Counted from the first letter of the stretch, positions 503 through 64,000 are shown. The stretch is 64,000 nt of DNA from a virus (IMGVR_UViG_3300045988_100580:17594-81593); one strand, 5' to 3'. Numbers and translations are program-made. The notes: generated from the letters alone by a model not told the origin.

Positions 503-525
503 CTTAACTCCCTTCGGTCGTTAAG
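503..525 (+). promoter_or_regulatory. Hairpin H3: stem CTTAAC/GTTAAG, loop TCCCTTCGGTC
   Basis: Same loop with a covarying stem; followed by TTCATTCAC. Confidence 0.5.
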
Positions 526-749
526 TTCATTCACTGTAAACAATTATATGAATAAATGGTAAAGTATATAAAATAATATAAATAATATAATGAGTAAGAT
601 CATTGAAAATGGTCTTAATATTAAGGAAAACGGAGACTATTCATAGGCGTAGTTTTAATTCAAGATTTGTTGTCCCACCCCTGAAGGTCAGGAGGTTACG
701 TTCAGAACCGTTTTCCTGTCTCTTATCCAAACCGTCATAAAATAAAAAA

Positions 750-22593: not shown

Positions 22594-22613
22594 TGATATG
22601 CTTGATTTTTAAC

Positions 22614-22621
22614 TACCTTTG
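22614..22621 (+). promoter_or_regulatory. -7 box TACCTTTG, 23 nt upstream of ATG 22645
   Basis: Exact match to TAnnTTTG. Confidence 0.45.
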
Positions 22622-22644
22622 TCTCATAACAAAAATGTTTTACT

Positions 22645-25600
22645 ATGACATCAACGTGTATTATTAAAAGAGATAATAAAAATAAAGTTGTTTCTGTCTC
22701 TACCAGATCAGGGGACAGGTCTATGTTGTTTGATAAAATAGCATCTATTCCTCTTATGGAGAATAGGGAACGGGCTACTACTGTTTTTAAAACCGTATTT
22801 TCTAATAAGTTCTTAAAGGCTTTTGGTGACTGGAGAAGGAATGTGCCTATCAACAAACAGGCTTACAATAAGGTAAAATCTAACATCGGCCTTATTCCAG
22901 AGACCTATAGAGAAAGGGTGCTGGATAAGGCTTCTAAGATGAGCAACCCTATTCTTGTGTCGAAATCAGATGCACCTTATGGGATTCAAGAATCAGGCTT
23001 TGGATTTTATAGCCAAGATCTGGGTGATAATATTATGTTGGTGGATGCTATGGTTCCGTCAAGTATCTCCGTGCCGGAAGAACCAGGAATAGACTCAGGG
23101 CAGTATCTACAAGATGCTATATCTTCGGACTTCACTCCCGTATCTATGGTACAGGATAATGATGTTAATTATATGGTTATAAAAGACGGTCTTAAGATAT
23201 TTAGTCCAGAAGAGCTACCAGAAACAGATTCTAATCCTGTGGGTGTAACGTATCAGACTGGAGAACCTCGTTTGTTTTTTATGAATGATCGTAATCAATT
23301 ATTTGAAGATTACGGAGAAGCTCTTCGCTCTGGCGGGAATGATATCAGAATAGGATTCTTATCAGGCATCGTTCAAGAATCTACCGTGGATGGAGTGGCA
23401 GACATTACTTACAAGGCTGGAAAGTATGTTCTTAATAATCCCAAGTCTTTTATACCGGTCATGACCGCTTCTGCTTCTACTTCTTTATCAACAAAAGGCG
23501 GTATAATTAACTACCTTATAAAGAAAGGTCTTTTGTCCGGATCCAAGATATTCGATCCGGAAACAAGAAGCTATTATATTACAGGAGAAGGACATACAGG
23601 ACAAATTAGACTTTTCAATTCAGCCTTATCCTACACTGAGCTCCGTAATCATTTTGGTTCCGATGTTTCCATGAACGACCAGGGTATGATAACCATAAAT
23701 TCATTGGATAATAGTAAGGTAACTATGAGACTCGCCACCGGAGGAACAGAAAGAGTTAGCAAGGAGCAGATAAAGAGCGATCTTAAGTCTGGAAGATACA
23801 ATGAATTGGATGCTAAATACGATCACTTTGATGCGCTTGTAGTTTCATTTATATTAGAAGACAATGATCTTTATGCTGATACTAAAGCTAAGATAGTATC
23901 GGATTATAGCCAAGAGGAACGTAATCAACGAAATTCTATTGTTGAGATACTGAAAACGCTGGGCGTTAGTGTCGTTGGCATGACCGATTATATAGAGAAG
24001 TACCAAACTAAATACGGACACGAACCTTCTGCTAAGGCATTGGCGGATATTGCCAATAACGTAATAGCAGTCGGTGAAGATGCTACTTTGTCTGACTTAG
24101 TAGAAGAAACAGCACACTTTCTCGTAGAGGCGTACAGAGATCAGAATGCTGTTGAATCTGTTTTGCAAGATGTAGAAGGCACTGAAGAATGGAATCAGTA
24201 TGCAGGTCAGTATTATAATACATACGGTAAGGTATATGAAGGCTCTGAACTTGATAATGCTGTTAGGAGAGAAATTCTTGGAAAGATCCTCGCCAGGGAG
24301 ATGCAGACCGGCACAGCACAGGCGCCGGTAGAGCCCACCTCCTTCCTGGGGCGCGTCCGGCAGCTTCTCTCTGGAATTGTAAACTGGCTTAAATCAGCTT
24401 TATCAACCCAAAGACAGGATTTGAATAACGTTATTAAAAATATTCGTGATCTTGCCATTACTGACATAGATAAAGGATTTGACACCTCTCTGTTAAAGGA
24501 TAATGACTTTACATTATACTCCCTTTCTTCTATGAACAAGAACAAGTTTCTTGAGTCCAAGATCAGATCACTAAGAAAAACATTAAGAGACTTACGTCAG
24601 ATAAGCTCTGATAGGGCTGTAACTACGTCTATGACCCTTGCTCAGCTTAAGACCATAGAAGATAAGATAAATAAGGTAGAGACCGAAATAGACAAGAATG
24701 AGATGGCGGCTGCCATGAACAGCATGATCTCCACAGCCGAAGCTCAGGTCAGATACTTAAGTAATGTGGTGAACGCCATCCTTCATGGTGATACCAAAGA
24801 TGGTAAGCTTCACTTCAATACCAATGATCGAAAGAACGTAGATATTATCAACAATCAGGTTCTTCCGATCATGAACGATCTTCGAGGATATATCCGTAAC
24901 AGAAGTACCGAATTTGATGAACGTGAAAAGCAGGATTATACAAATAGGATCAATACCGTCATTGCCGACATCAATGGTATTCAGTCTGATATTAAATCAG
25001 TACAAGACCTTGATGAAAGCACGTTGCTTGATAAGTTAATGAACGAACTTCATGTGCCGGCAGATAAGGTAAAGAGAGTAAAAGAATTTTTTGACAAGGT
25101 TCAACACGATGTTTCTTGGATAAGTAGGTGGTTCGGTATATTAGAGCATTCTTCCAGTCCGTTCAATAACGCTCTTGGAGCTATGATTGCCAAAGACAAT
25201 TACAATGCGATGGTGAATGCCCAGCCCGCCATATCTGACTTCCTGGCATATGCTAAAAAGCATGGTTTTAACAAATCTGAATTTGAAAAACTGCTTCAGA
25301 AAGTAGACGGCAAAACTTCTAATTACCTTCGTAGTGCTCTTGATATGGCTAAATACGATCGTAATAAGAAGTTGGCGCAGATGCGAGCGTTTGCGACTGC
25401 CATGAACATAGAAATATCAGAAGAAGAAATCAATGATGTGGTTGACAATAATCGTAATTACGTATTTAAAAGAGAAGTAGTTGACAAGGACGGAAATACG
25501 GTTACTGAAAACGCTAAATTTAAGCCCTCATCTGACAGGGTTAATACTGATATTTTTACCATCGAGCAGGAAAAGATCTATACAGAACAGATGGAGAAGT

Positions 25601-55099: not shown

Positions 55100-55762
55100 T
55101 TAATCCCATCCTCCATCAGCATACAAAGAAACATCTTCATCTTCTACGTTTACACCTTTAATAGCCTGTAGAAGTTTTTTCTTTGTCTCCCGGCACATAT
55201 TGTAACCATATCCTTTATACCGATATGAGCGCTCCCATGTACTTACTGGAAAAGGGATATTTTCGTCAATAACCAGCCTCTTCATATGAAGATGTTCGAA
55301 GAATTTCTCATGATAGAGTAGTTTGTACTCGTATGCTACTATACTTGCAGATGAGAATGGAAAATAATCATCTTCTTTTTCTTCGTATTTGGGCTCCTTA
55401 TAGTAAGCCGTTTTTGTCACAGTAAAATCGAAGCTCCTAAGAATCTCTTTCGGCTTTCCAAACTCTGACTCTATGAACTCTATCCATACCTTTTCTCCCT
55501 CTTTCTGGAACGCACATACCTTCTCATTTCTGTACTTAAATCTCCACCCTTCTTTTTGGTGTTTTTCATCATTGAACAAATTGACAGCTTCCTGAAAATC
55601 GCTTTCGCTTTCAAAGAATACATCAATATCTTTCACTTTTTCCTCAGAAAGAATATTCTTAAAACATCCACCAGCTATGAACCCCTTGTGACCTTCCATA
55701 TACTTGTCAAGCCATCTTATTTGCCAGAAATTATCTGGAGTATCTATTACAAAATTATTCAT
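55100..55762 (-). CDS. Pol-beta-superfamily nucleotidyltransferase-like protein
   Basis: GFIAGGCFKNILSEEKVKDIDVFF fits the hG[GS]x9-13DhDh NTase motif, with downstream acidic residues (IEFIESE, SFDFT). Confidence 0.4.
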   Translation of the reverse strand: MNNFVIDTPDNFWQIRWLDKYMEGHKGFIAGGCFKNILSEEKVKDIDVFFESESDFQEAVNLFNDEKHQKEGWRFKYRNEKVCAFQKEGEKVWIEFIESEFGKPKEILRSFDFTVTKTAYYKEPKYEEKEDDYFPFSSASIVAYEYKLLYHEKFFEHLHMKRLVIDENIPFPVSTWERSYRYKGYGYNMCRETKKKLLQAIKGVNVEDEDVSLYADGGWD

Positions 55763-61413: not shown

Positions 61414-61664
61414 AGCTTTTTGTATTTACGTACATTTTTCTTGCCATAGAATCTACACATGGCACGAATCTGACTATAAAATACTTTTGTCCTCCTGGCC
61501 TCAAAGTATTTAAACATTTCTTCATTCTTTGTTTCCCACACGTAATCCGTTTGAGAACTCATGTGATTTTTGTCCTTGCGTGAATAATGGTAATATGATA
61601 CCACAACACGTTTCGCACCATTCTTTACAGGTACGATATTCACATCTATGTTATTATCTGTCAT
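61410..61664 (-). CDS. Hypothetical protein, 84 aa
   Basis: ORF track. Confidence 0.4.
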   Translation of the reverse strand: MTDNNIDVNIVPVKNGAKRVVVSYYHYSRKDKNHMSSQTDYVWETKNEEMFKYFEARRTKVFYSQIRAMCRFYGKKNVRKYKKL

Positions 61665-61710
61665 ATTATTATCGTTTTATATATTATACAAATACAAAGA
61701 GCGCATACCT

Positions 61711-62016
61711 TCACAGGCCGGCGCTCTTTTCAATAAAAATGAAAAAACTAACATTACATAAACATATTGTTTTCTGCTCTTTATTACAATACTTTGTCCC
61801 ACAATTGTTATATCGTCCGTACTCTTTTTTCGTATCATTCAAGATTTCAAACACCATCTTCTTATGATCTTTGTTTGGTAACTTGTCTTTAACAGCCGAT
61901 ATCACGCTCGCTATAGACGTAAAGCCTGAATCTGTTATTGAACACAACAACAAACCTCTGTCGTCGTCTGTGCTTATCGCTGACGCCTTTATAATATCAT
62001 TCCTATATATTCTCAT
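61711..62016 (-). CDS. Hypothetical protein, 101 aa
   Basis: ORF track. Confidence 0.4.
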   Translation of the reverse strand: MRIYRNDIIKASAISTDDDRGLLLCSITDSGFTSIASVISAVKDKLPNKDHKKMVFEILNDTKKEYGRYNNCGTKYCNKEQKTICLCNVSFFIFIEKSAGL

Positions 62017-62194
62017 AATCTTTCGTTTTATTGTCTACAAACTTATCTATATCGTCTCTTATTCTTTTTAGCACTCCGGCTATAATTTCCGGCATCTCTC
62101 CTTCGGTACGGTTCAGAGTTTCTATCACCCCATCAATCCTACCAATTTGACGCCATAAGAAATTGGCGTCTTTCGCATTAAATTCCCTCATCAT
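62003..62194 (-). CDS. Hypothetical protein, 63 aa
   Basis: ORF track. Confidence 0.35.
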   Translation of the reverse strand: MMREFNAKDANFLWRQIGRIDGVIETLNRTEGEMPEIIAGVLKRIRDDIDKFVDNKTKDYENI

Positions 62195-62426
62195 GTCTTA
62201 TTTTACAGTAAACAACTTGCTTTTTTAAGCACCAGTCTTGCGATTCTGAGAGTGAACACCGTTCGGAGTTGTTAAAAAATATACAATCTTTGCAGAACAT
62301 AAGAGGATCTTCGTCGTCACCAACTACTTTGACATCATACTCTATACCATACAATTTTAATCTAAATACATCTCCTGTTTTTTTAGAAGACAAATCCATG
62401 TTCGGACCGAATGTTATTACTTCCAT
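62178..62426 (-). CDS. Hypothetical Cys-containing protein, 82 aa
   Basis: ORF track. Immediately downstream (in the minus sense) of tRNA-T-arm-like element 1. Confidence 0.45.
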   Translation of the reverse strand: MEVITFGPNMDLSSKKTGDVFRLKLYGIEYDVKVVGDDEDPLMFCKDCIFFNNSERCSLSESQDWCLKKQVVYCKIRHDEGI

Positions 62427-62446
62427 ATAATTATGTTTTATTGTTT

Positions 62447-62520
62447 GTGAGATGCCCAGAATCGAACCAGGACCGGCACATACATACCGGCACGCCGCGC
62501 CATCTCTCTATGATACACAA
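62447..62520 (-). ncRNA. tRNA-like fragment or structured leader element 1: minus-sense …CCTGG-TTCGATT-CTGGG-CATCTCACAA…
   Basis: T-arm-like hairpin with a GGTTCGATTC loop motif plus a 7-nt acceptor-like tail. I could not fold a full cloverleaf; the sequence is about 12 nt too short and no anticodon arm was found. Confidence 0.3.
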
Positions 62521-62599
62521 ATAGACATGCCTATTCTCACGAACCGACATGCCAAAACCCAAAACTTAATTTGATGAATAAAATAGATTAACAAAAATA

Positions 62600-62914
62600 C
62601 TATTCTAATTCTTTTATAATATCTTTCACAATATTCAGCCTTACCTCCTTCGTTTCTGGACTAAGACAACCAAACCACCCATAAAACGTTCTTGTTTCCT
62701 CTGGTTCTGTGGCCATACTTATCTTCTCTTCCAATTCCGGGAAATATATTCTTACCATTTCGTCTGAACTAAACTCATAGATATTTTTATGTGTTTTGAA
62801 ATACATAAACACTACATTTCTTAACGCAACACATATATATTCCCCATCCTCTAACCTATCAATCATCTTATATACCTTTTCCCATATGAATAATCGCTCT
62901 TCTTTTGTAAACAT
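62600..62914 (-). CDS. Hypothetical protein, 104 aa
   Basis: ORF track. Confidence 0.45.
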   Translation of the reverse strand: MFTKEERLFIWEKVYKMIDRLEDGEYICVALRNVVFMYFKTHKNIYEFSSDEMVRIYFPELEEKISMATEPEETRTFYGWFGCLSPETKEVRLNIVKDIIKELE

Positions 62915-62922
62915 ATCCTTCT

Positions 62923-63270
62923 TTATTTTTGTGGTATTATTTGACTGTATGCAGACTTTTCCATGTACACAACACTATGCTCCTGTCCAAGTATTTTCTT
63001 TGCTGCCTCTTTCTTTATCGCACAATATCTCCCTGTACGATACGGATTCTTTTGATCTGATCCATCCTCGACTTCGATAATAAAACAGCCTCCGTCATCT
63101 ATTATCTTTTTGCAATTGTCACATACTCCTCCCGTGCATATATGATGCGGCGCCTGACCTTTGATGTTATTCCCTAATAAAGCAATCCCCATCTCTTCTC
63201 CACATATCATGCAGACTTCTATAGACGGATTCAATCCGTGTTCTGGATGTAATGTAATACTGTCTTTCAT
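62923..63270 (-). CDS. Cys-rich (zinc-finger-like) protein, 115 aa
   Basis: CxxC pairs (CMICGEE, CTGGVCDNC). AAAGGAGG SD upstream. Confidence 0.5.
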   Translation of the reverse strand: MKDSITLHPEHGLNPSIEVCMICGEEMGIALLGNNIKGQAPHHICTGGVCDNCKKIIDDGGCFIIEVEDGSDQKNPYRTGRYCAIKKEAAKKILGQEHSVVYMEKSAYSQIIPQK

Positions 63271-63296
63271 TTTCTTTCCTCCTTTGTTTTTAATAT

Positions 63297-63381
63297 TGTG
63301 TGAGATCGCCGGAATCGAACCGACCTACCGCACCATGAATCCCATAAAGCAAATGCTCCGATCTTCGCAGACGGGAGCATT
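63297..63381 (-). ncRNA. tRNA-like fragment or structured leader element 2: minus-sense hairpin ATGCTCC-(14 nt)-GGAGCAT, then GTCGG-TTCGATT-CCGGC-GATCTCACACAA, directly upstream of the SD of gene 62923..63270
   Basis: Same GGTTCGATTC…ATCTCACA motif as element 1 with a covarying stem. No cloverleaf could be folded. Confidence 0.3.
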
Positions 63382-63424
63382 CTGTCTAAAGCATAAGAAA
63401 ATTAATGAAGAAAATCTTCCTCAC

Positions 63425-63505
63425 TTACGCCATAGCATCTAAAATAGCTATCAGCACTATTTCTATGACAAACATAATAGAAAATATCTTAAATGCCTTT
63501 TTCAT
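63425..63505 (-). CDS. 26-aa hydrophobic micro-peptide MKKAFKIFSIMFVIEIVLIAILDAMA with a strong SD (GGAGGAG)
   Basis: Base-by-base hand translation. SD CTCCTCC at forward 63514-63520. Single predicted TM helix. Confidence 0.4.
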   Translation of the reverse strand: MKKAFKIFSIMFVIEIVLIAILDAMA

Positions 63506-63611
63506 ATCGCTATCTCCTCCTTTTTATTTTTTTAGTTCCACAATAAACTGTTCCGGCTCTGCCCCGACCTACGTTCCACCTACAACCGCAGGCCTTAGCC
63601 CAAGGCGCCGC

Positions 63612-63872
63612 CTATTCCCCCTCTATGGCAGCCTGTTCGTACCTACAAAGCCAATCTCCTTCCATACAACTATTACTACGCGATAACAAACATTTATCCT
63701 TATAATAATCATAAAAAATACTCCTCTCACAACTGTAATCCCTAATTTCTATACAGCTAACTACCTTAGCATATACTATACCATCACTACCTTCTATTCC
63801 TCTTACCCCAAAAATAGAACCTTCTCCCTCCTTACTCAAATCTAAGTCAGGCGCAAAGTCATATACGTTCAT
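63612..63872 (-). CDS. Hypothetical protein, 86 aa
   Basis: ORF track. Confidence 0.45.
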   Translation of the reverse strand: MNVYDFAPDLDLSKEGEGSIFGVRGIEGSDGIVYAKVVSCIEIRDYSCERSIFYDYYKDKCLLSRSNSCMEGDWLCRYEQAAIEGE

Positions 63873-64000
63873 GTTGTTTATGTTTTAATTGTTATACATT
63901 CCGATTGAAAAAAAATACTCACATAATGCAGTCCTTAACTCTTACCTACAGAATACCGTTTTAAAAACGCTGATCTGTTGAATTTTGTTGAAAGAGAGTT

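What the first reader, a model, noticed from the sequence alone, without database searches (positions are those of the whole stretch)
62440..63381. Duplicated tRNA-T-arm-like element (GGTTCGATTC-N5-ATCTCACA) immediately upstream of two minus-strand genes
Two loci about 850 bp apart share, in the minus sense, a 5-bp stem, TTCGATT loop, 5-bp stem (stems covary: CCTGG/CTGGG against GTCGG/CCGGC), then (C/G)ATCTCACA(A/C)AA. Each sits 25-40 nt before a gene start (62426 and 63270). The loop and tail mimic a tRNA T-arm plus acceptor 3' half, but I could not fold a complete cloverleaf. Options are degenerate tRNA remnants, tRNA-like leader structures (processing by RNase P or Z, translational control), or a promoter/operator class for this gene set. 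Element 2 also carries an extra 7-bp hairpin (ATGCTCC/GGAGCAT).
Basis: seen in the sequence. Interest (0 to 1): 0.6.

Follow-up and report, generated by a model that had tools for sequence, protein, structure and literature searches.

The report
Phage tRNA-like minihelix elements between genes
Two short RNA structures that copy the "top half" of a tRNA (T-arm plus a closing stem) sit between early genes of a very common human-gut crAss-like phage; they are not tRNA genes, and they most likely mark the long early transcript for cutting by the cell's tRNA-processing enzymes.

Summary
GGTTCGATTC-N5-ATCTCACA occurs twice on the minus strand (62446-62468, 63299-63321), with 0 expected by chance. 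ARAGORN and Rfam call nothing there. The window is about 94% identical to epsilon crAss-like phage crAssE-Sib.

Each copy is a tRNA-like minihelix. An N-C trailer and an A/C-rich leader follow, 19-28 nt before the next start codon. Upstream, each has a 12-bp GNRA-capped hairpin.

Both elements are conserved in more than 100 related contigs. A third copy (el3) lies just past the window edge. Unrelated phages carry the same architecture.

Across families 97.5% of stem positions pair (70% in shuffles), and 8 of 11 pairs change on both sides. The T-loop varies only at positions that are free in real tRNAs.

Best explanation (about 0.45): phage "t-elements", meaning tRNA-like punctuation cut by RNase P and/or RNase Z within the early polycistronic RNA. 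This is inferred, not shown. Rivals are trans-acting tRNA mimics, decayed tRNAs, translational leader structures, promoters and att sites.

The elements are not members of the tRNA, YrlA or tmRNA families. I rate this a new variant of a known kind, of moderate to high interest.

The parts
62524..62553 (-). el1 upstream hairpin H1: GGCAUGUC-G-GUUC-GUGA-GAAU-A-GGCAUGUC (8 bp, 1x1 mismatch, 4 bp, GNRA tetraloop)
   Evidence: Read from the sequence and present in the minimum-free-energy fold. It has the same architecture as the el2 hairpin. It is conserved in el1-type copies, with U-to-C changes that convert G.U to G-C.
62501..62507 (-). el1 closing stem P1, 5' strand GAGAUG (62501-62506), plus unpaired position 1 (A, 62507)
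   Evidence: It pairs with 62449-62454. Pairing is kept in variants: GGGAUG/CAUCUC, GGGAUG/CAUUUC, and GGAAUG/CAUUC in L017, which is a G-C to A-U double change.
62491..62500 (-). el1 linker GCGCGGCGUG (takes the place of a D-arm; contains GG)
   Evidence: Unpaired in the proposed structure and conserved in el1 copies.
62473..62490 (-). el1 inner hairpin CCGGUA-UGUAUG-UGCCGG (optional)
   Evidence: Present in the MFE folds. 98% of cells are paired, with one-sided G.U changes. It is deleted naturally in some genomes without loss of the rest of the element. Its 6-nt loop is not an anticodon loop.
62455..62471 (-). el1 T-arm: CCUGG-UUCGAUU-CUGGG
   Evidence: The stem varies to UCUGG/CCAGG and CCCGG/CCGGG while staying paired. 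The loop varies only at positions 57 and 59 across the family.
62446..62454 (-). el1 closing stem 3' strand CAUCUC (62449-62454), then the A-C-A trailer (62446-62448)
   Evidence: The trailer matches the discriminator-plus-C that follows the phage lineage's CCA-less tRNAs.
62427..62445 (-). el1 A/C-rich unstructured leader AACAAUAAAACAUAAUUAU, running up to the ATG at 62426
   Evidence: In genomes that carry the alternative downstream gene, the sequences diverge just after ...ACAAACAAUAAAACA.
63352..63381 (-). el2 upstream hairpin H1: AAUGCUCC-C-GUCU-GCGA-AGAU-C-GGAGCAUU
   Evidence: Three pairs change on both sides (A-U/G-C, U-A/C-G, C-G/A-U). In the shuffle control, 0 or 1 of 500 shuffles reach the observed values on four of the five measures.
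63338..63344 (-). el2 closing stem 5' strand GGGAUU (63338-63343), plus U63344, which can pair with A63301
   Evidence: It pairs with 63302-63307. It is invariant in 24 distinct el2 copies. In L063, three one-sided changes all keep pairing while the 1-72 pair is lost.
63325..63337 (-). el2 linker CAUGGUGCGGUAG (the most variable stretch; CAUGGUG is shared with L246)
63308..63324 (-). el2 T-arm: GUCGG-UUCGAUU-CCGGC
   Evidence: The variants GCUGG/CCGGC and GUCGG/CCGAC stay paired.
63299..63307 (-). el2 closing stem 3' strand GAUCUC (63302-63307), then the A-C-A trailer (63299-63301)
63271..63298 (-). el2 leader CAAUAUUAAAAACAAAGGAGGAAAGAAA, running up to the ATG at 63270
   Evidence: An alternative downstream gene diverges after ...ACACAAYAUUAAAA.
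62178..62426 (-). Gene immediately downstream of el1 (82 aa, no known family)
62923..63270 (-). Gene immediately downstream of el2 (115 aa, cysteine-rich; phrog_11852, function unknown)
   Evidence: The exact protein is indexed in 537 blocks of public assemblies.

Best explanation
el1 and el2 are RNA elements within the leftward early/replication transcript of an epsilon crAss-like phage. A third copy, el3, lies just outside the window.

Each folds into a tRNA 'top half'. A canonical T-arm stacks on a 6-bp acceptor-like closing stem, and a discriminator-like N-C trailer follows. There is no anticodon arm.

I propose that they work like the t-elements of plant mitochondria, or like tRNA punctuation in general. 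The host's tRNA-maturation enzymes recognise the minihelix and cut the polycistronic RNA.
- RNase P would cut at the 5' edge of the closing stem. The upstream message would then end in the stable GNRA-capped hairpin H1.
- RNase Z, or an equivalent 3' activity, would cut after the trailer. This would release the downstream message with a short, unstructured A/C-rich leader 19-28 nt before its start codon.
- A small tRNA-like RNA of about 50-65 nt would be released, and it could receive CCA.

Shown here: the sequence anatomy, conservation, covariation, tRNA-like constraints, and an intergenic position co-oriented with the flanking genes.

Inferred: transcription as part of the mRNA, cleavage by RNase P or RNase Z, and any effect on mRNA stability or translation.
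For: - **Non-random and unclassified.** The motif is non-random and is not a tRNA, a tmRNA or any Rfam family.
- **Conservation.** It occurs in more than 118 IMG/VR contigs of 80-150 kb, with at most two R1-model copies (el1- and el2-type) per locus. el3 is found 1.8-2.3 kb upstream on the same strand in at least 30 contigs.
- **Structure.** On the trimmed 18-sequence cross-family alignment, 97.5% of cells are paired against 70.3% in shuffles (0/500). Eight of 11 pairs change on both sides, 5 of 6 in the closing stem and 3 of 5 in the T-stem. The covariation score is 0.81 against 0.25. An untrimmed MAFFT alignment gives 98.2% against 84.9%.
- **Natural double compensations.** L017 has closing-stem G-C to A-U. 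el3 has T-stem UCCGG/CCGGA to UCUGG/CCAGA.
- **Independent members.** el3, the first L245 element and the phi14:2 element were all found from the T-arm alone. Each has a closing stem of unrelated sequence directly abutting the T-stem.
- **Strandedness.** Many stem positions are G.U or vary through G.U. This works only for the gene-sense strand read as RNA.
- **tRNA-specific constraints.** The loop is always UUCRANY, and it varies only at position 57 (G to A) and position 59. It fits the GGTTCRANYCC motif used to find t-elements.
- **Trailer.** The N-C after the stem (A-C, A-C, U-C) matches the trailers of the lineage's own CCA-less tRNAs.
- **Context.** In every family the element is intergenic, co-oriented with the flanking genes, and closely precedes a start codon.
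- **Premise from the literature.** Acceptor-stem plus T-arm hairpins are efficient RNase P substrates, and phage and operon RNAs are known non-tRNA substrates (PMC11143913). t-elements define mRNA ends through RNase P and RNase Z (PMC1920247).
- **Breadth.** The same architecture appears in an unrelated WhiB-encoding phage group. That argues for a universal host machinery rather than a phage-specific factor.
Against: - There are no transcript-end or cleavage data. My attempt to find transcript-like contigs returned only long DNA contigs.
- The closing stem is 6 bp, or 7 only in el2, so the coaxial stack is 11 bp rather than the canonical 12. In the Y RNA study, RNase P cut only the YrlA that has a 7-bp stem (PMC4201824).
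- Within el1 alone there is no double compensation, and the shuffle control is not exceeded. Within el2 the closing stem never varies.
- The cross-family alignment uses 5' strands that I chose, and my search patterns fixed most of the 3' strand for several members.
- Thermodynamic folding alone does not single out the structure. The z-scores are about -0.2 to -2.3. The MFE fold misses the el1 T-arm and uses a different closing stem for el2.
- The closing-stem sequence G-R-R-A-U-K is more conserved among el1, el2, L014 and L245b than pairing alone would require. That hints at sequence-specific recognition, which the model does not explain.
Confidence: 0.45

Rival explanations
1. The elements are made in order to act in trans as small tRNA mimics. 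Whether or not they are excised from the mRNA, their purpose would be to bind a tRNA-recognising partner. Candidates are the phage's own Ro60-related protein (as an unconventional Y RNA), the phage nucleotidyltransferase, the host's CCA-adding or T-loop-modifying enzymes, SmpB/AlaRS (as a mimic of the tmRNA tRNA-like domain), or host tRNA-targeting defence nucleases (as a decoy).
For: - The lineage encodes a Ro60-related protein, a polynucleotide kinase/3'-phosphatase, and a protein its authors call a poly(A) polymerase/CCA-adding enzyme. The homolog of the last one is window ORF 55100-55762, which is 95% identical.
- Bacterial Y RNAs and tmRNA both use a T-arm-containing tRNA-like domain.
- A related crAss-like phage, phi14:2, carries a tmRNA and another T-arm element in its early region, where abundant stable non-coding RNAs were reported.
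- Most el1 and el2 copies have G.U at the position equivalent to 3:70.
- The closing-stem sequence is conserved beyond what pairing needs.
Against: - A conventional YrlA-like RNA already sits next to rsr. The elements are about 75 kb from rsr and have neither the Ro60-binding terminal stem nor the T-hairpin-D order of YrlA.
- The G.U at 3:70 is not universal. It is A-U in this window's el1, in L014 and in L245b. It is G-C in L017, L063 and el3.
- There is no anticodon arm for anticodon nucleases to target.
- The nucleotidyltransferase's specificity is unverified. Pfam, NCBIfam and PDB give no hit, and the AlphaFold model has pLDDT 35.
- The constant placement 19-28 nt before a start codon is left unexplained.
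Confidence: 0.2
2. The elements are decaying tRNA genes (pseudogenes) with no present function. The T-arm and the acceptor remnants have simply not eroded yet.
For: - Phage genomes carry tRNA clusters, and this lineage has six tRNAs.
- el1, el3 and L014 keep a central hairpin where an anticodon arm would be.
- L014 folds into a miniature cloverleaf.
- Diversity within the epsilon crAss-like group is shallow, so conservation there is weak evidence.
Against: - Three paralogs in one genome have diverged almost completely, except for an identical T-loop, a paired closing stem and the N-C trailer.
- The same parts are kept in unrelated phages.
- Variation avoids the T-loop positions that are constrained in tRNAs, and it keeps stems paired.
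- The minihelix survives every rearrangement seen: loss of the inner hairpin, loss of the upstream gene, and swaps of the downstream gene.
Confidence: 0.1
3. The elements are cis-acting 5'-UTR structures. They control translation or stability of the gene just downstream without being cut out. For example, the tRNA-like elbow could contact the ribosome or a tRNA-binding regulator, or the structure could protect the leader.
For: - All three copies end 19-28 nt before a start codon and are followed by an A-rich unstructured leader.
- Shine-Dalgarno motifs are not generally used in this phage, so leader structure could matter.
Against: - The downstream genes differ between genomes and between phages and share no family. 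A gene-specific regulator is therefore unlikely.
- Nothing in the structure sequesters the start codon or the leader.
- No known bacterial precedent uses a full canonical T-arm for this purpose. That statement rests on my own knowledge.
Confidence: 0.1
4. The elements act at the DNA level. They could be an early promoter for the virion RNA polymerase or the host polymerase. They could be a phage attachment site that copies the 3' end of a host tRNA. Or they could be a repeat that mediates module shuffling, like the PeSL cassettes of T4-type phages.
For: - The elements lie in the first few kb of the leftward gene block.
- Alternative downstream genes diverge right after each element.
- An el2/el1 chimera joined inside the T-loop shows that the copies do recombine.
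- One weak sigma-70-like match overlaps el1.
Against: - The stems depend on G.U pairs and on compensatory changes on the gene-sense strand. This includes a closing stem that a promoter or an att core would not need.
- The sigma-70-like match would start transcription on the start codon, and it is lost where the downstream gene differs.
- No Bacteroidota -33/-7 boxes are apparent in the sequence.
- phi14:2 early transcripts share no upstream motif.
- The same architecture occurs in phages that lack a crAss-type polymerase.
- No integrase was found in this lineage by its describers.
- Recombination between dispersed repeats is an expected by-product of having repeats.
Confidence: 0.07

Closest known systems
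t-elements of plant mitochondria (tRNA-like processing signals; Forner et al. 2007, PMC1920247)
   Same: Both are non-canonical tRNA-like structures recognised by the GGTTCRANYCC T-arm motif. Both lie beside protein genes in polycistronic precursors. In mitochondria they define mRNA 5' and 3' ends through RNase P and RNase Z, and the released element receives non-templated C/CCA. In anatomy and placement the phage elements match.
   Different: The phage elements are in a bacteriophage, not an organelle, and there is no sequence homology. The closing stem is 6 bp. el2 has no central arm at all. No cleavage has been shown here.
Mitochondrial tRNA punctuation and the MALAT1-mascRNA / MEN-beta system
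   Same: A tRNA or tRNA-like fold embedded in a long transcript serves as the cut site. The upstream RNA is left with a protective 3' structure: a triple helix in MALAT1, and here, by inference, the GNRA-capped hairpin H1.
   Different: Those systems are eukaryotic. The comparison with mascRNA rests on my own knowledge plus the title and abstract listed. The protective structure is of a different kind.
Minimal RNase P model substrates (acceptor stem + T-stem + T-loop hairpins)
   Same: el2 is essentially this minimal substrate plus a 13-nt linker. Such hairpins are cut at the canonical site by bacterial RNase P RNA with or without its protein (PMC11143913).
   Different: The model substrates have a 7-bp acceptor stem and usually a 3' RCCA. 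The phage elements have 6 bp and an N-C-A/U trailer.
Bacterial and phage Y RNAs (YrlA, Rfam RF02553)
   Same: Both are non-coding tRNA mimics with a canonical T-arm. This phage lineage encodes the partner protein Ro60/Rsr.
   Different: In YrlA the terminal Ro60-binding stem encloses T-arm, then a closed acceptor-like hairpin, then a D-arm, and the RNA is encoded next to rsr. The elements have the opposite topology, no Ro60-binding motif and no Rfam match, and they are about 75 kb from rsr. A YrlA-like RNA does sit next to rsr.
tRNA-like domain of tmRNA
   Same: Both have an acceptor stem plus T-arm with a reduced D-loop analogue and no anticodon arm. Most el1 and el2 copies have G.U at the 3:70-equivalent position. 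A related crAss-like phage has a true tmRNA in its early region.
   Different: The elements have no tag reading frame, no pseudoknots, no long P2 helix, no ARAGORN or Rfam tmRNA call, and are only 50-70 nt long. The G.U is not universal.
PeSL (promoter-early stem-loop) cassettes of T4-type phages
   Same: Both are short dispersed elements at the boundaries of variable early genes, and both can recombine with each other (the el2/el1 chimera).
   Different: PeSLs are defined by an early promoter plus a stem-loop and are not tRNA-like. This comparison rests on my own knowledge and was not tested here.

Membership tests
Canonical tRNA gene | Cloverleaf with a D-arm and an anticodon arm (5-bp stem, 7-nt loop), detectable by tRNA finders | tested here: not met
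   ARAGORN finds 0 genes in the window and none at any element in related loci. The Rfam tRNA model gives no match even at E<=10. el2 has only a 13-nt linker between closing stem and T-arm. The el1 inner hairpin has a 6-nt loop.
Canonical tRNA gene | T-arm: 5-bp stem closed by G53-C61, with loop U54-U55-C56-R57-A58-N59-Y60 | tested here: met
   Both copies have GG-UUCGAUU-C. Across all family members, variation is confined to position 57 (G to A) and position 59 (U to C, A or G).
Canonical tRNA gene | 7-bp acceptor stem (a 12-bp coaxial stack with the T-stem) | tested here: not met
   The closing stem is 6 bp. The 1:72-equivalent position is A.A or G.A in el1, U.U in el3 and C.A in L014. It pairs only in el2 (U-A), and that pair is lost in L063.
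t-elements (tRNA-like mRNA processing signals) | A GGTTCRANYCC T-arm motif outside canonical tRNA genes | tested here: met
   el2 has GGTTCGATTCC, an exact match. el1 has GGTTCGATTCT, with a G.U in place of the last G-C. The definition comes from PMC1920247.
t-elements (tRNA-like mRNA processing signals) | The motif is part of a non-canonical tRNA-like fold with an acceptor-like stem | tested here: met
   The closing stem directly abuts the T-stem and is supported by covariation.
t-elements (tRNA-like mRNA processing signals) | Located beside protein genes on the same strand, within a co-transcribed precursor | tested here: inconclusive
   The elements are intergenic and co-oriented with their flanking genes in all families, inside an uninterrupted 33-kb minus-strand block. 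Co-transcription itself was not observed.
t-elements (tRNA-like mRNA processing signals) | Element ends coincide with mRNA termini, cleavage is by RNase P / RNase Z, and non-templated C/CCA is added | not testable with these tools
   No transcript-end data are available. The contig look-up returned only long DNA contigs.
YrlA / bacterial Y RNA (RF02553) | Encoded adjacent to the Ro60 (rsr) gene | tested here: not met
   In crAssE-Sib, rsr is at 73.1-74.7 kb and the elements are at 148.6 and 149.8 kb. A YrlA-like match lies about 390 nt upstream of rsr (72601-72705).
YrlA / bacterial Y RNA (RF02553) | A terminal stem from the 5' and 3' ends carrying the Ro60-binding motif GNCGAAN0-1G, enclosing T-arm, then a closed acceptor-like hairpin, then a D-arm | tested here: not met
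   The topology is the reverse: the closing-stem strands flank the T-arm, and an unstructured tail follows. The motif is absent. The nearest sequence is UGCGAAG in the el2 hairpin loop. Rfam gives no YrlA match at E<=10.
tmRNA | Tag-peptide reading frame, pseudoknots, and a long helix replacing the anticodon arm; detectable by ARAGORN or Rfam | tested here: not met
   There is no tmRNA call in the window. The elements are 50-70 nt. As a positive control, the same tools do find a tmRNA in phi14:2.
tmRNA | G3.U70 alanine identity pair in the acceptor stem | tested here: inconclusive
   The equivalent position is G.U in all 24 distinct el2 copies and in 25 of 27 distinct el1 copies. It is A-U in this window's el1, in L014 and in L245b. 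It is G-C in L017, L063 and el3. The register is also uncertain, because the stem could be read as 6 or 7 bp.
Sigma-70-type promoter / intrinsic terminator | -35/-10 hexamers at a fixed position upstream of the gene, or a G+C-rich hairpin followed by a U-tract | tested here: not met
   There are no terminator-like sites in 61500-64000. One 9/12 promoter-like match overlaps el1, none overlaps el2, and promoter-like matches in the region are at most modestly above the shuffle mean (15 found against 9.4, sd 3.0).
Phage attP copying a host tRNA 3' end | Identity to the 3' part of a host tRNA gene, plus an integrase | not tested
   The host is unknown. The describers of crAssE-Sib report no integrase. 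The presence and covariation of a 5' complementary strand is not expected for an att core. My one genome-collection scan was mis-specified and cannot answer this.

The most novel reading that the evidence does not exclude
The minihelices are excised from the early transcript, CCA-tailed (possibly by the phage's own small nucleotidyltransferase), and then act in trans as a new class of phage tRNA mimic. They might serve as unconventional partners of the phage Ro60 protein. They might mimic the tmRNA tRNA-like domain, using the G.U at 3:70, and titrate SmpB, AlaRS or EF-Tu. Or they might act as decoys for host enzymes or defence nucleases that recognise the tRNA elbow and acceptor end. Together with the tmRNA and the T-arm element in the phi14:2 early region, this would mean that Crassvirales devote their earliest transcription to manipulating the host's tRNA machinery.
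Probability: 0.12. Interest if true: 0.85.

Novelty: new variant of a known kind. Interest (0 to 1): 0.6.

Why it matters
Epsilon crAss-like phages are widespread in the human gut. The exact protein encoded next to el2 is indexed in 537 blocks of public assemblies. How crAss-like phages organise their early gene expression is largely unknown: in phi14:2, early transcripts share no promoter motif, and abundant early non-coding RNAs are unexplained.

A conserved series of three tRNA-like minihelices at the head of the early gene block would be a bacterial-virus counterpart of mitochondrial tRNA punctuation. It gives exact, testable predictions for RNA ends.

It also bears on annotation. The elements are unannotated or mis-annotated as a protein gene in the GenBank relative. 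They are invisible to tRNA finders and are absent from Rfam. Similar elements exist in unrelated phages, so a covariance model built from them could reveal a broader class.

Tried and rejected
- **Mis-specified scan.** In one search I wrote 9 rather than 8 free bases between GGTTCGAWTC and TCACAA. Of the 129 hits, 111 were ordinary tRNA-Arg, -Lys and -Glu genes. I therefore could not search for the elements in host genomes or test the att-site idea.
- **Metagenome scan**. It returned mostly chance matches inside coding sequence, including a recurrent RNA-polymerase-like reading frame. Only L279 (the L014 family) was genuine.
- **Ambiguous or rejected hits.** L253/L254 and L276 have the motif but not the same fold. 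I judged L106 and L249 spurious.
- **Third intergenic region.** The GC-rich stretch at 63506-63611, with a GUCGG...CCGG stem, looked like a degenerate copy. The covariance model does not match it.
- **A small protein over el1.** The relative annotates a 52-aa CDS there. I reject it because G-run length differences of 1-3 nt and a 14-nt deletion shift the frame among near-identical genomes.
- **A conserved AUG-started micro-ORF** at the shared AUGG. I reject it because the frames and stops are not conserved (reading).
- **A multi-cassette hotspot after el1.** This turned out to be two alternatives plus length variants of one gene.
- **Transcript-end evidence from public assemblies.** I got only long DNA contigs.
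- **The nucleotidyltransferase annotation.** Pfam, NCBIfam and PDB sequence searches gave nothing, and a single-sequence AlphaFold model had pLDDT 35. I ran no further search on this side question.
- **Thermodynamic folding alone** is not decisive, with z-scores from -0.2 to -2.3.
Full report
**The observation**

On the minus strand, GGTTCGATTC-N5-ATCTCACA occurs at 62446-62468 (el1) and at 63299-63321 (el2). None of 100 dinucleotide-preserving shuffles gave a match, even with two mismatches allowed. The halves taken alone are unremarkable: GGTTCGATTC with one mismatch and ATCTCACA both occur about as often as chance predicts. The combination is what is special.

ARAGORN finds no tRNA or tmRNA in the 64 kb. 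Rfam has no match at gathering score over the window, and only noise at E<=10 over 61800-64000.

**What the genome is**

The region is 94% identical to phage crAssE-Sib (deposited as 'csAssE-Sib', OR575929). This is a 151-kb linear epsilon crAss-like phage from human gut.

In the window, plus-strand genes run to about 30.6 kb and include two giant proteins of more than 2,100 aa. An unbroken minus-strand block then runs from the right edge leftwards. It contains helicases, a PD-(D/E)XK nuclease, and DnaB-like and primase-like genes.

The elements lie in the first 1-2 kb of that block within the window, among small genes of unknown function.

**Anatomy**

Reading the minus strand, el1 runs in this order:
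- Stop codon of the upstream gene (62600).
- Hairpin H1 at 62524-62553: 8 bp, a G/A mismatch, 4 bp and a GUGA tetraloop.
- A 17-nt spacer.
- Closing-stem 5' strand GAGAUG (62501-62506).
- A 10-nt linker.
- An inner hairpin (62473-62490).
- One U.
- T-arm CCUGG-UUCGAUU-CUGGG (62455-62471).
- Closing-stem 3' strand CAUCUC (62449-62454).
- A-C-A.
- An A/C-rich leader.
- ATG at 62426.

el2 has the same plan:
- H1 at 63352-63381: 8 bp, a C/C mismatch, 4 bp and a GCGA tetraloop.
- An 8-nt spacer, the last base of which (U63344) can pair with A63301.
- GGGAUU (63338-63343).
- A 13-nt linker with no inner hairpin.
- T-arm GUCGG-UUCGAUU-CCGGC (63308-63324).
- GAUCUC (63302-63307).
- A-C-A.
- A leader with a strong Shine-Dalgarno sequence.
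- ATG at 63270.

Each element is therefore an acceptor-like stem stacked on a canonical T-arm, which is a tRNA 'top half'.

**Conservation and copy number**

Both elements are present in crAssE-Sib and in more than 118 IMG/VR contigs of 80-150 kb.

I built a covariance model from a cross-family alignment.
- It finds exactly two copies in the window: 64.0 and 62.1 bits, with the next best at 12.6 and filters off.
- It finds at most two per locus in 100 related loci.

A T-arm survey of the whole crAssE-Sib genome found four T-arms outside its six tRNAs. They are el1, el2, a YrlA-like RNA next to the phage's Ro60 gene, and a third element, el3, at record position 514-530.

el3 is conserved in at least 30 contigs. 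It always lies 1.8-2.3 kb upstream of el2 on the same strand. In this window it would fall at roughly 65.1-65.6 kb, just past the edge.

el3 reads, in order:
- The upstream stop codon, which lies inside the closing-stem 5' strand GGUUGU.
- A central hairpin.
- T-arm UCCGG-UUCGAUU-CCGGA.
- Closing-stem 3' strand GCAACC.
- U-C-U.
- An A-rich leader, which with the U-C-U makes 26 nt between the closing stem and the AUG.

**Other phages**

An unrelated group (L014, L016, L091, L122, L279) encodes a WhiB-like protein and a Cas4-like exonuclease. It has the same layout:
- Stop codon.
- A hairpin.
- Closing-stem 5' strand GAAAUG.
- A 3-bp arm with a GGUU loop.
- A central hairpin.
- T-arm GUUGG-UUCGAUU-CCAAC.
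- Closing-stem 3' strand CAUUUC.
- Tail ACAAGAACAACAAUU.
- A ribosome-binding site and the next gene.

It folds unaided into a miniature cloverleaf.

L245 has two tandem T-arm structures upstream of a DNA-polymerase-like gene, and neither is called as a tRNA. L246 has an el2-like copy in a 46-nt gap between two same-strand ORFs.

**Is it an RNA structure?**

- *Within el2.* H1 has three pairs that change on both sides. T-stem changes are one-sided through G.U. The closing stem never varies.
- *Within el1.* 98.3% of cells pair and 11 of 17 pairs vary. Every change is one-sided, and the shuffle control is not exceeded.
- *Across families, MAFFT alignment of 15 sequences.* 98.2% of cells pair against 84.9% in shuffles (0/500), and five pairs change on both sides.
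- *Across families, trimmed alignment of 18 sequences.* I added members found from the T-arm alone (el3, the first L245 element, the phi14:2 element) and trimmed to the two helices. 97.5% of cells pair against 70.3% (0/500). Eight of 11 pairs change on both sides, 5 of 6 in the closing stem. The covariation score is 0.81 against 0.25. I placed the 5' strands in this alignment myself, so it leans towards the structure.
- *Chance of the closing stem.* By my own rough estimate, a fully complementary 6-mer within about 40 nt upstream occurs by chance about 0.1 times per element. It was found in seven independent families.
- *Natural variants.* L017 has closing-stem G-C to A-U. L063 has three one-sided changes, all still paired. 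el3 has T-stem UCCGG/CCGGA to UCUGG/CCAGA.
- *Strand.* The many G.U pairs mean that the fold exists only on the gene-sense strand.

**tRNA-specific constraints**

Across all members the loop is UUCRANY. The only changes are G57 to A, and U59 to C, A or G. These are the positions that are free in tRNAs.

After the closing stem come A-C (el1, el2) or U-C (el3). The lineage's own tRNAs (Cys, Arg, Gln, Met) lack an encoded CCA and are followed by discriminator-C in the same way. The phi14:2 tmRNA also ends ...CUCC-A-C-U.

**What it is not**

- *Not a tRNA.* There is no D-arm or anticodon arm, the stem is 6 bp, and tRNA finders are silent.
- *Not YrlA.* The topology is wrong, there is no Ro60-binding motif, and it is not next to rsr. 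A YrlA-like RNA does sit there.
- *Not tmRNA.* As a positive control, the same tools find a tmRNA in phi14:2.
- *Not a protein gene.* The 52-aa CDS that GenBank annotates over el1 is frameshifted among near-identical genomes.
- *Not a promoter or terminator.* Promoter and terminator scans are negative or inconsistent.

**Mechanism**

Acceptor-stem plus T-arm hairpins are efficient RNase P substrates, and phage and operon RNAs are known non-tRNA substrates (PMC11143913). Plant-mitochondrial t-elements have the same anatomy and the same placement beside genes. They define mRNA ends through RNase P and RNase Z (PMC1920247).

I therefore propose tRNA-like punctuation of the early polycistronic RNA:
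- RNase P would cut 5' of the closing stem. The upstream message would end in hairpin H1.
- A 3' cut after the trailer would free the downstream message with an unstructured A-rich leader. That suits a host that does not rely on Shine-Dalgarno pairing. SD motifs are not enriched before this phage's genes.

The occurrence of the same design in unrelated phages favours a universal host machinery.

The main weaknesses are these:
- There are no RNA-end data.
- The stem is 6 bp. RNase P cut only the 7-bp-stem YrlA in PMC4201824.
- The closing-stem sequence is conserved beyond what pairing requires.

**Rivals**

The strongest rival is a trans-acting tRNA mimic, and it is partly compatible with processing.
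- The lineage encodes Ro60, a polynucleotide kinase/phosphatase, and a protein its describers call a poly(A) polymerase/CCA-adding enzyme.
- The homolog of that last protein is window ORF 55100-55762. I could support this annotation only by a weak PHROG nucleotidyltransferase hit and a GG...DxD-like motif.

Decayed tRNA genes, a cis-acting translational leader, and DNA-level roles (promoter, att site, shuffling repeat) are less likely, for the reasons listed under each rival. The copies do recombine: there is an el2/el1 chimera, and downstream genes are swapped right after each element. I read that as a by-product of having dispersed repeats.

**Side finding**

The gene-free early region of Cellulophaga phage phi14:2 was reported to give abundant early non-coding RNAs of unknown function. 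It contains an unannotated tmRNA with tag peptide GSSVQKLAMVA. Further upstream it also holds a non-tRNA T-arm element. Crassvirales early regions therefore appear to be rich in tRNA-like RNAs.

**Verdict**

These are new, unannotated phage tRNA-like elements, and their closest analogues are mitochondrial t-elements.

Noticed in passing
L312 (NC_021806, Cellulophaga phage phi14:2) 4031-4500, + strand: There is an unannotated tmRNA in the gene-free early region between g004 and g006. ARAGORN calls it with tag peptide GSSVQKLAMVA*. The Rfam tmRNA model scores 46.0 bits against a gathering score of 47, with E about 5e-17. It coincides with one of the 'abundant early non-coding RNAs of unknown function' reported for this phage.
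   Followed up: partly
L312 about 1772-1849, + strand: phi14:2 has a second T-arm that is not called as a tRNA: GAAGG-UUCGAAU-CCUUC at 1824-1842. It has a possible 7-bp closing stem UGUUGGU/ACCAGUG and a long central hairpin, and it lies in the g002-g003 gap.
   Followed up: partly
L313 (OR575929) 508-575, minus strand; about 65.1-65.6 kb if the window were extended: A third tRNA-like element (el3) of the same lineage lies 1.8-2.3 kb upstream of el2. Its closing stem has an unrelated sequence (GGUUGU/GCAACC). It is conserved in at least 30 contigs and shows a compensatory T-stem change.
   Followed up: yes
L314 (OR575929) 22601-22705 = record 72601-72705, + strand: A YrlA-like Y RNA candidate scores 28.5 bits against Rfam RF02553 (E 0.0024, below the gathering score). 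It has T-arm ACAGG-UUCGAGU-CCUGU, then a closed hairpin, then a D-arm. It lies about 390 nt upstream of the phage's Ro60-related gene and next to tRNA-Tyr and tRNA-Lys, both of which have mismatched acceptor-stem ends.
   Followed up: partly
window 55100-55762, minus strand: This 220-aa ORF is 95% identical to the crAssE-Sib protein annotated as poly(A) polymerase/CCA-adding enzyme. Its N-terminal IAGGCFKNILS...VKDIDVFF looks like a class-II nucleotidyltransferase signature. Support is limited to a weak PHROG hit (E 1.7e-7). Pfam, NCBIfam and PDB give nothing, and the AlphaFold model is unusable.
   Followed up: partly
L001 4436-4594 (OR575929 148558-148716), corresponding to window about 62431-62590: GenBank annotates a 52-aa hypothetical protein (WOZ57404.1) over el1 and its upstream hairpin. 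G-run length differences and a 14-nt deletion among near-identical genomes shift the frame, so the CDS is probably spurious.
   Followed up: yes
window 63425-63505, minus strand: A tiny ORF with a strong ribosome-binding site (AAAAAGGAGGAGAUAGCGAU-AUG) encodes a 26-aa hydrophobic peptide, MKKAFKIFSIMFVIEIVLIAILDAMA. It lies just upstream of the el2 hairpin and is also annotated in crAssE-Sib.
   Followed up: no
window 63506-63611, minus strand: This GC-rich intergenic stretch folds stably (-29.3 kcal/mol, z = -1.4) and includes a GUCGG...CCGG stem like the el2 T-stem but with a GGCAGAG loop. The element's covariance model does not match it, and its nature is unknown.
   Followed up: partly
L100 7691-7743; A natural el2/el1 chimera is joined inside the T-loop, which deletes the roughly 850 bp between the two elements. 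Other genomes lack the el1 inner hairpin (deletion between CCGG repeats) or most of the gene upstream of el1. In every case the minihelix is kept.
   Followed up: partly
L245 (reverse strand) about 200-400: Two tandem T-arm-containing tRNA-like structures lie about 120 nt apart, between an acidic-tailed ORF and a DNA-polymerase-like gene. ARAGORN calls neither as a tRNA.
   Followed up: partly
L017 11534-12584; OR575929 6667-7027: The phage tRNA cluster (Cys, Arg, Gln, Met) has no encoded CCA. Every tRNA is followed by discriminator-C, and the genes are packed 0-70 nt apart. Their maturation must therefore rely on endonucleolytic 3' processing and CCA addition.
   Followed up: partly
window, whole: Shine-Dalgarno motifs are not enriched upstream of ORFs: 7 of 56 on the minus-strand block and 4 of 17 on the plus-strand block, against about 15% at random positions. 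This is consistent with a Bacteroidota-type host. The strong SD sites before the el2-downstream gene and the tiny ORF are exceptions.
   Followed up: no
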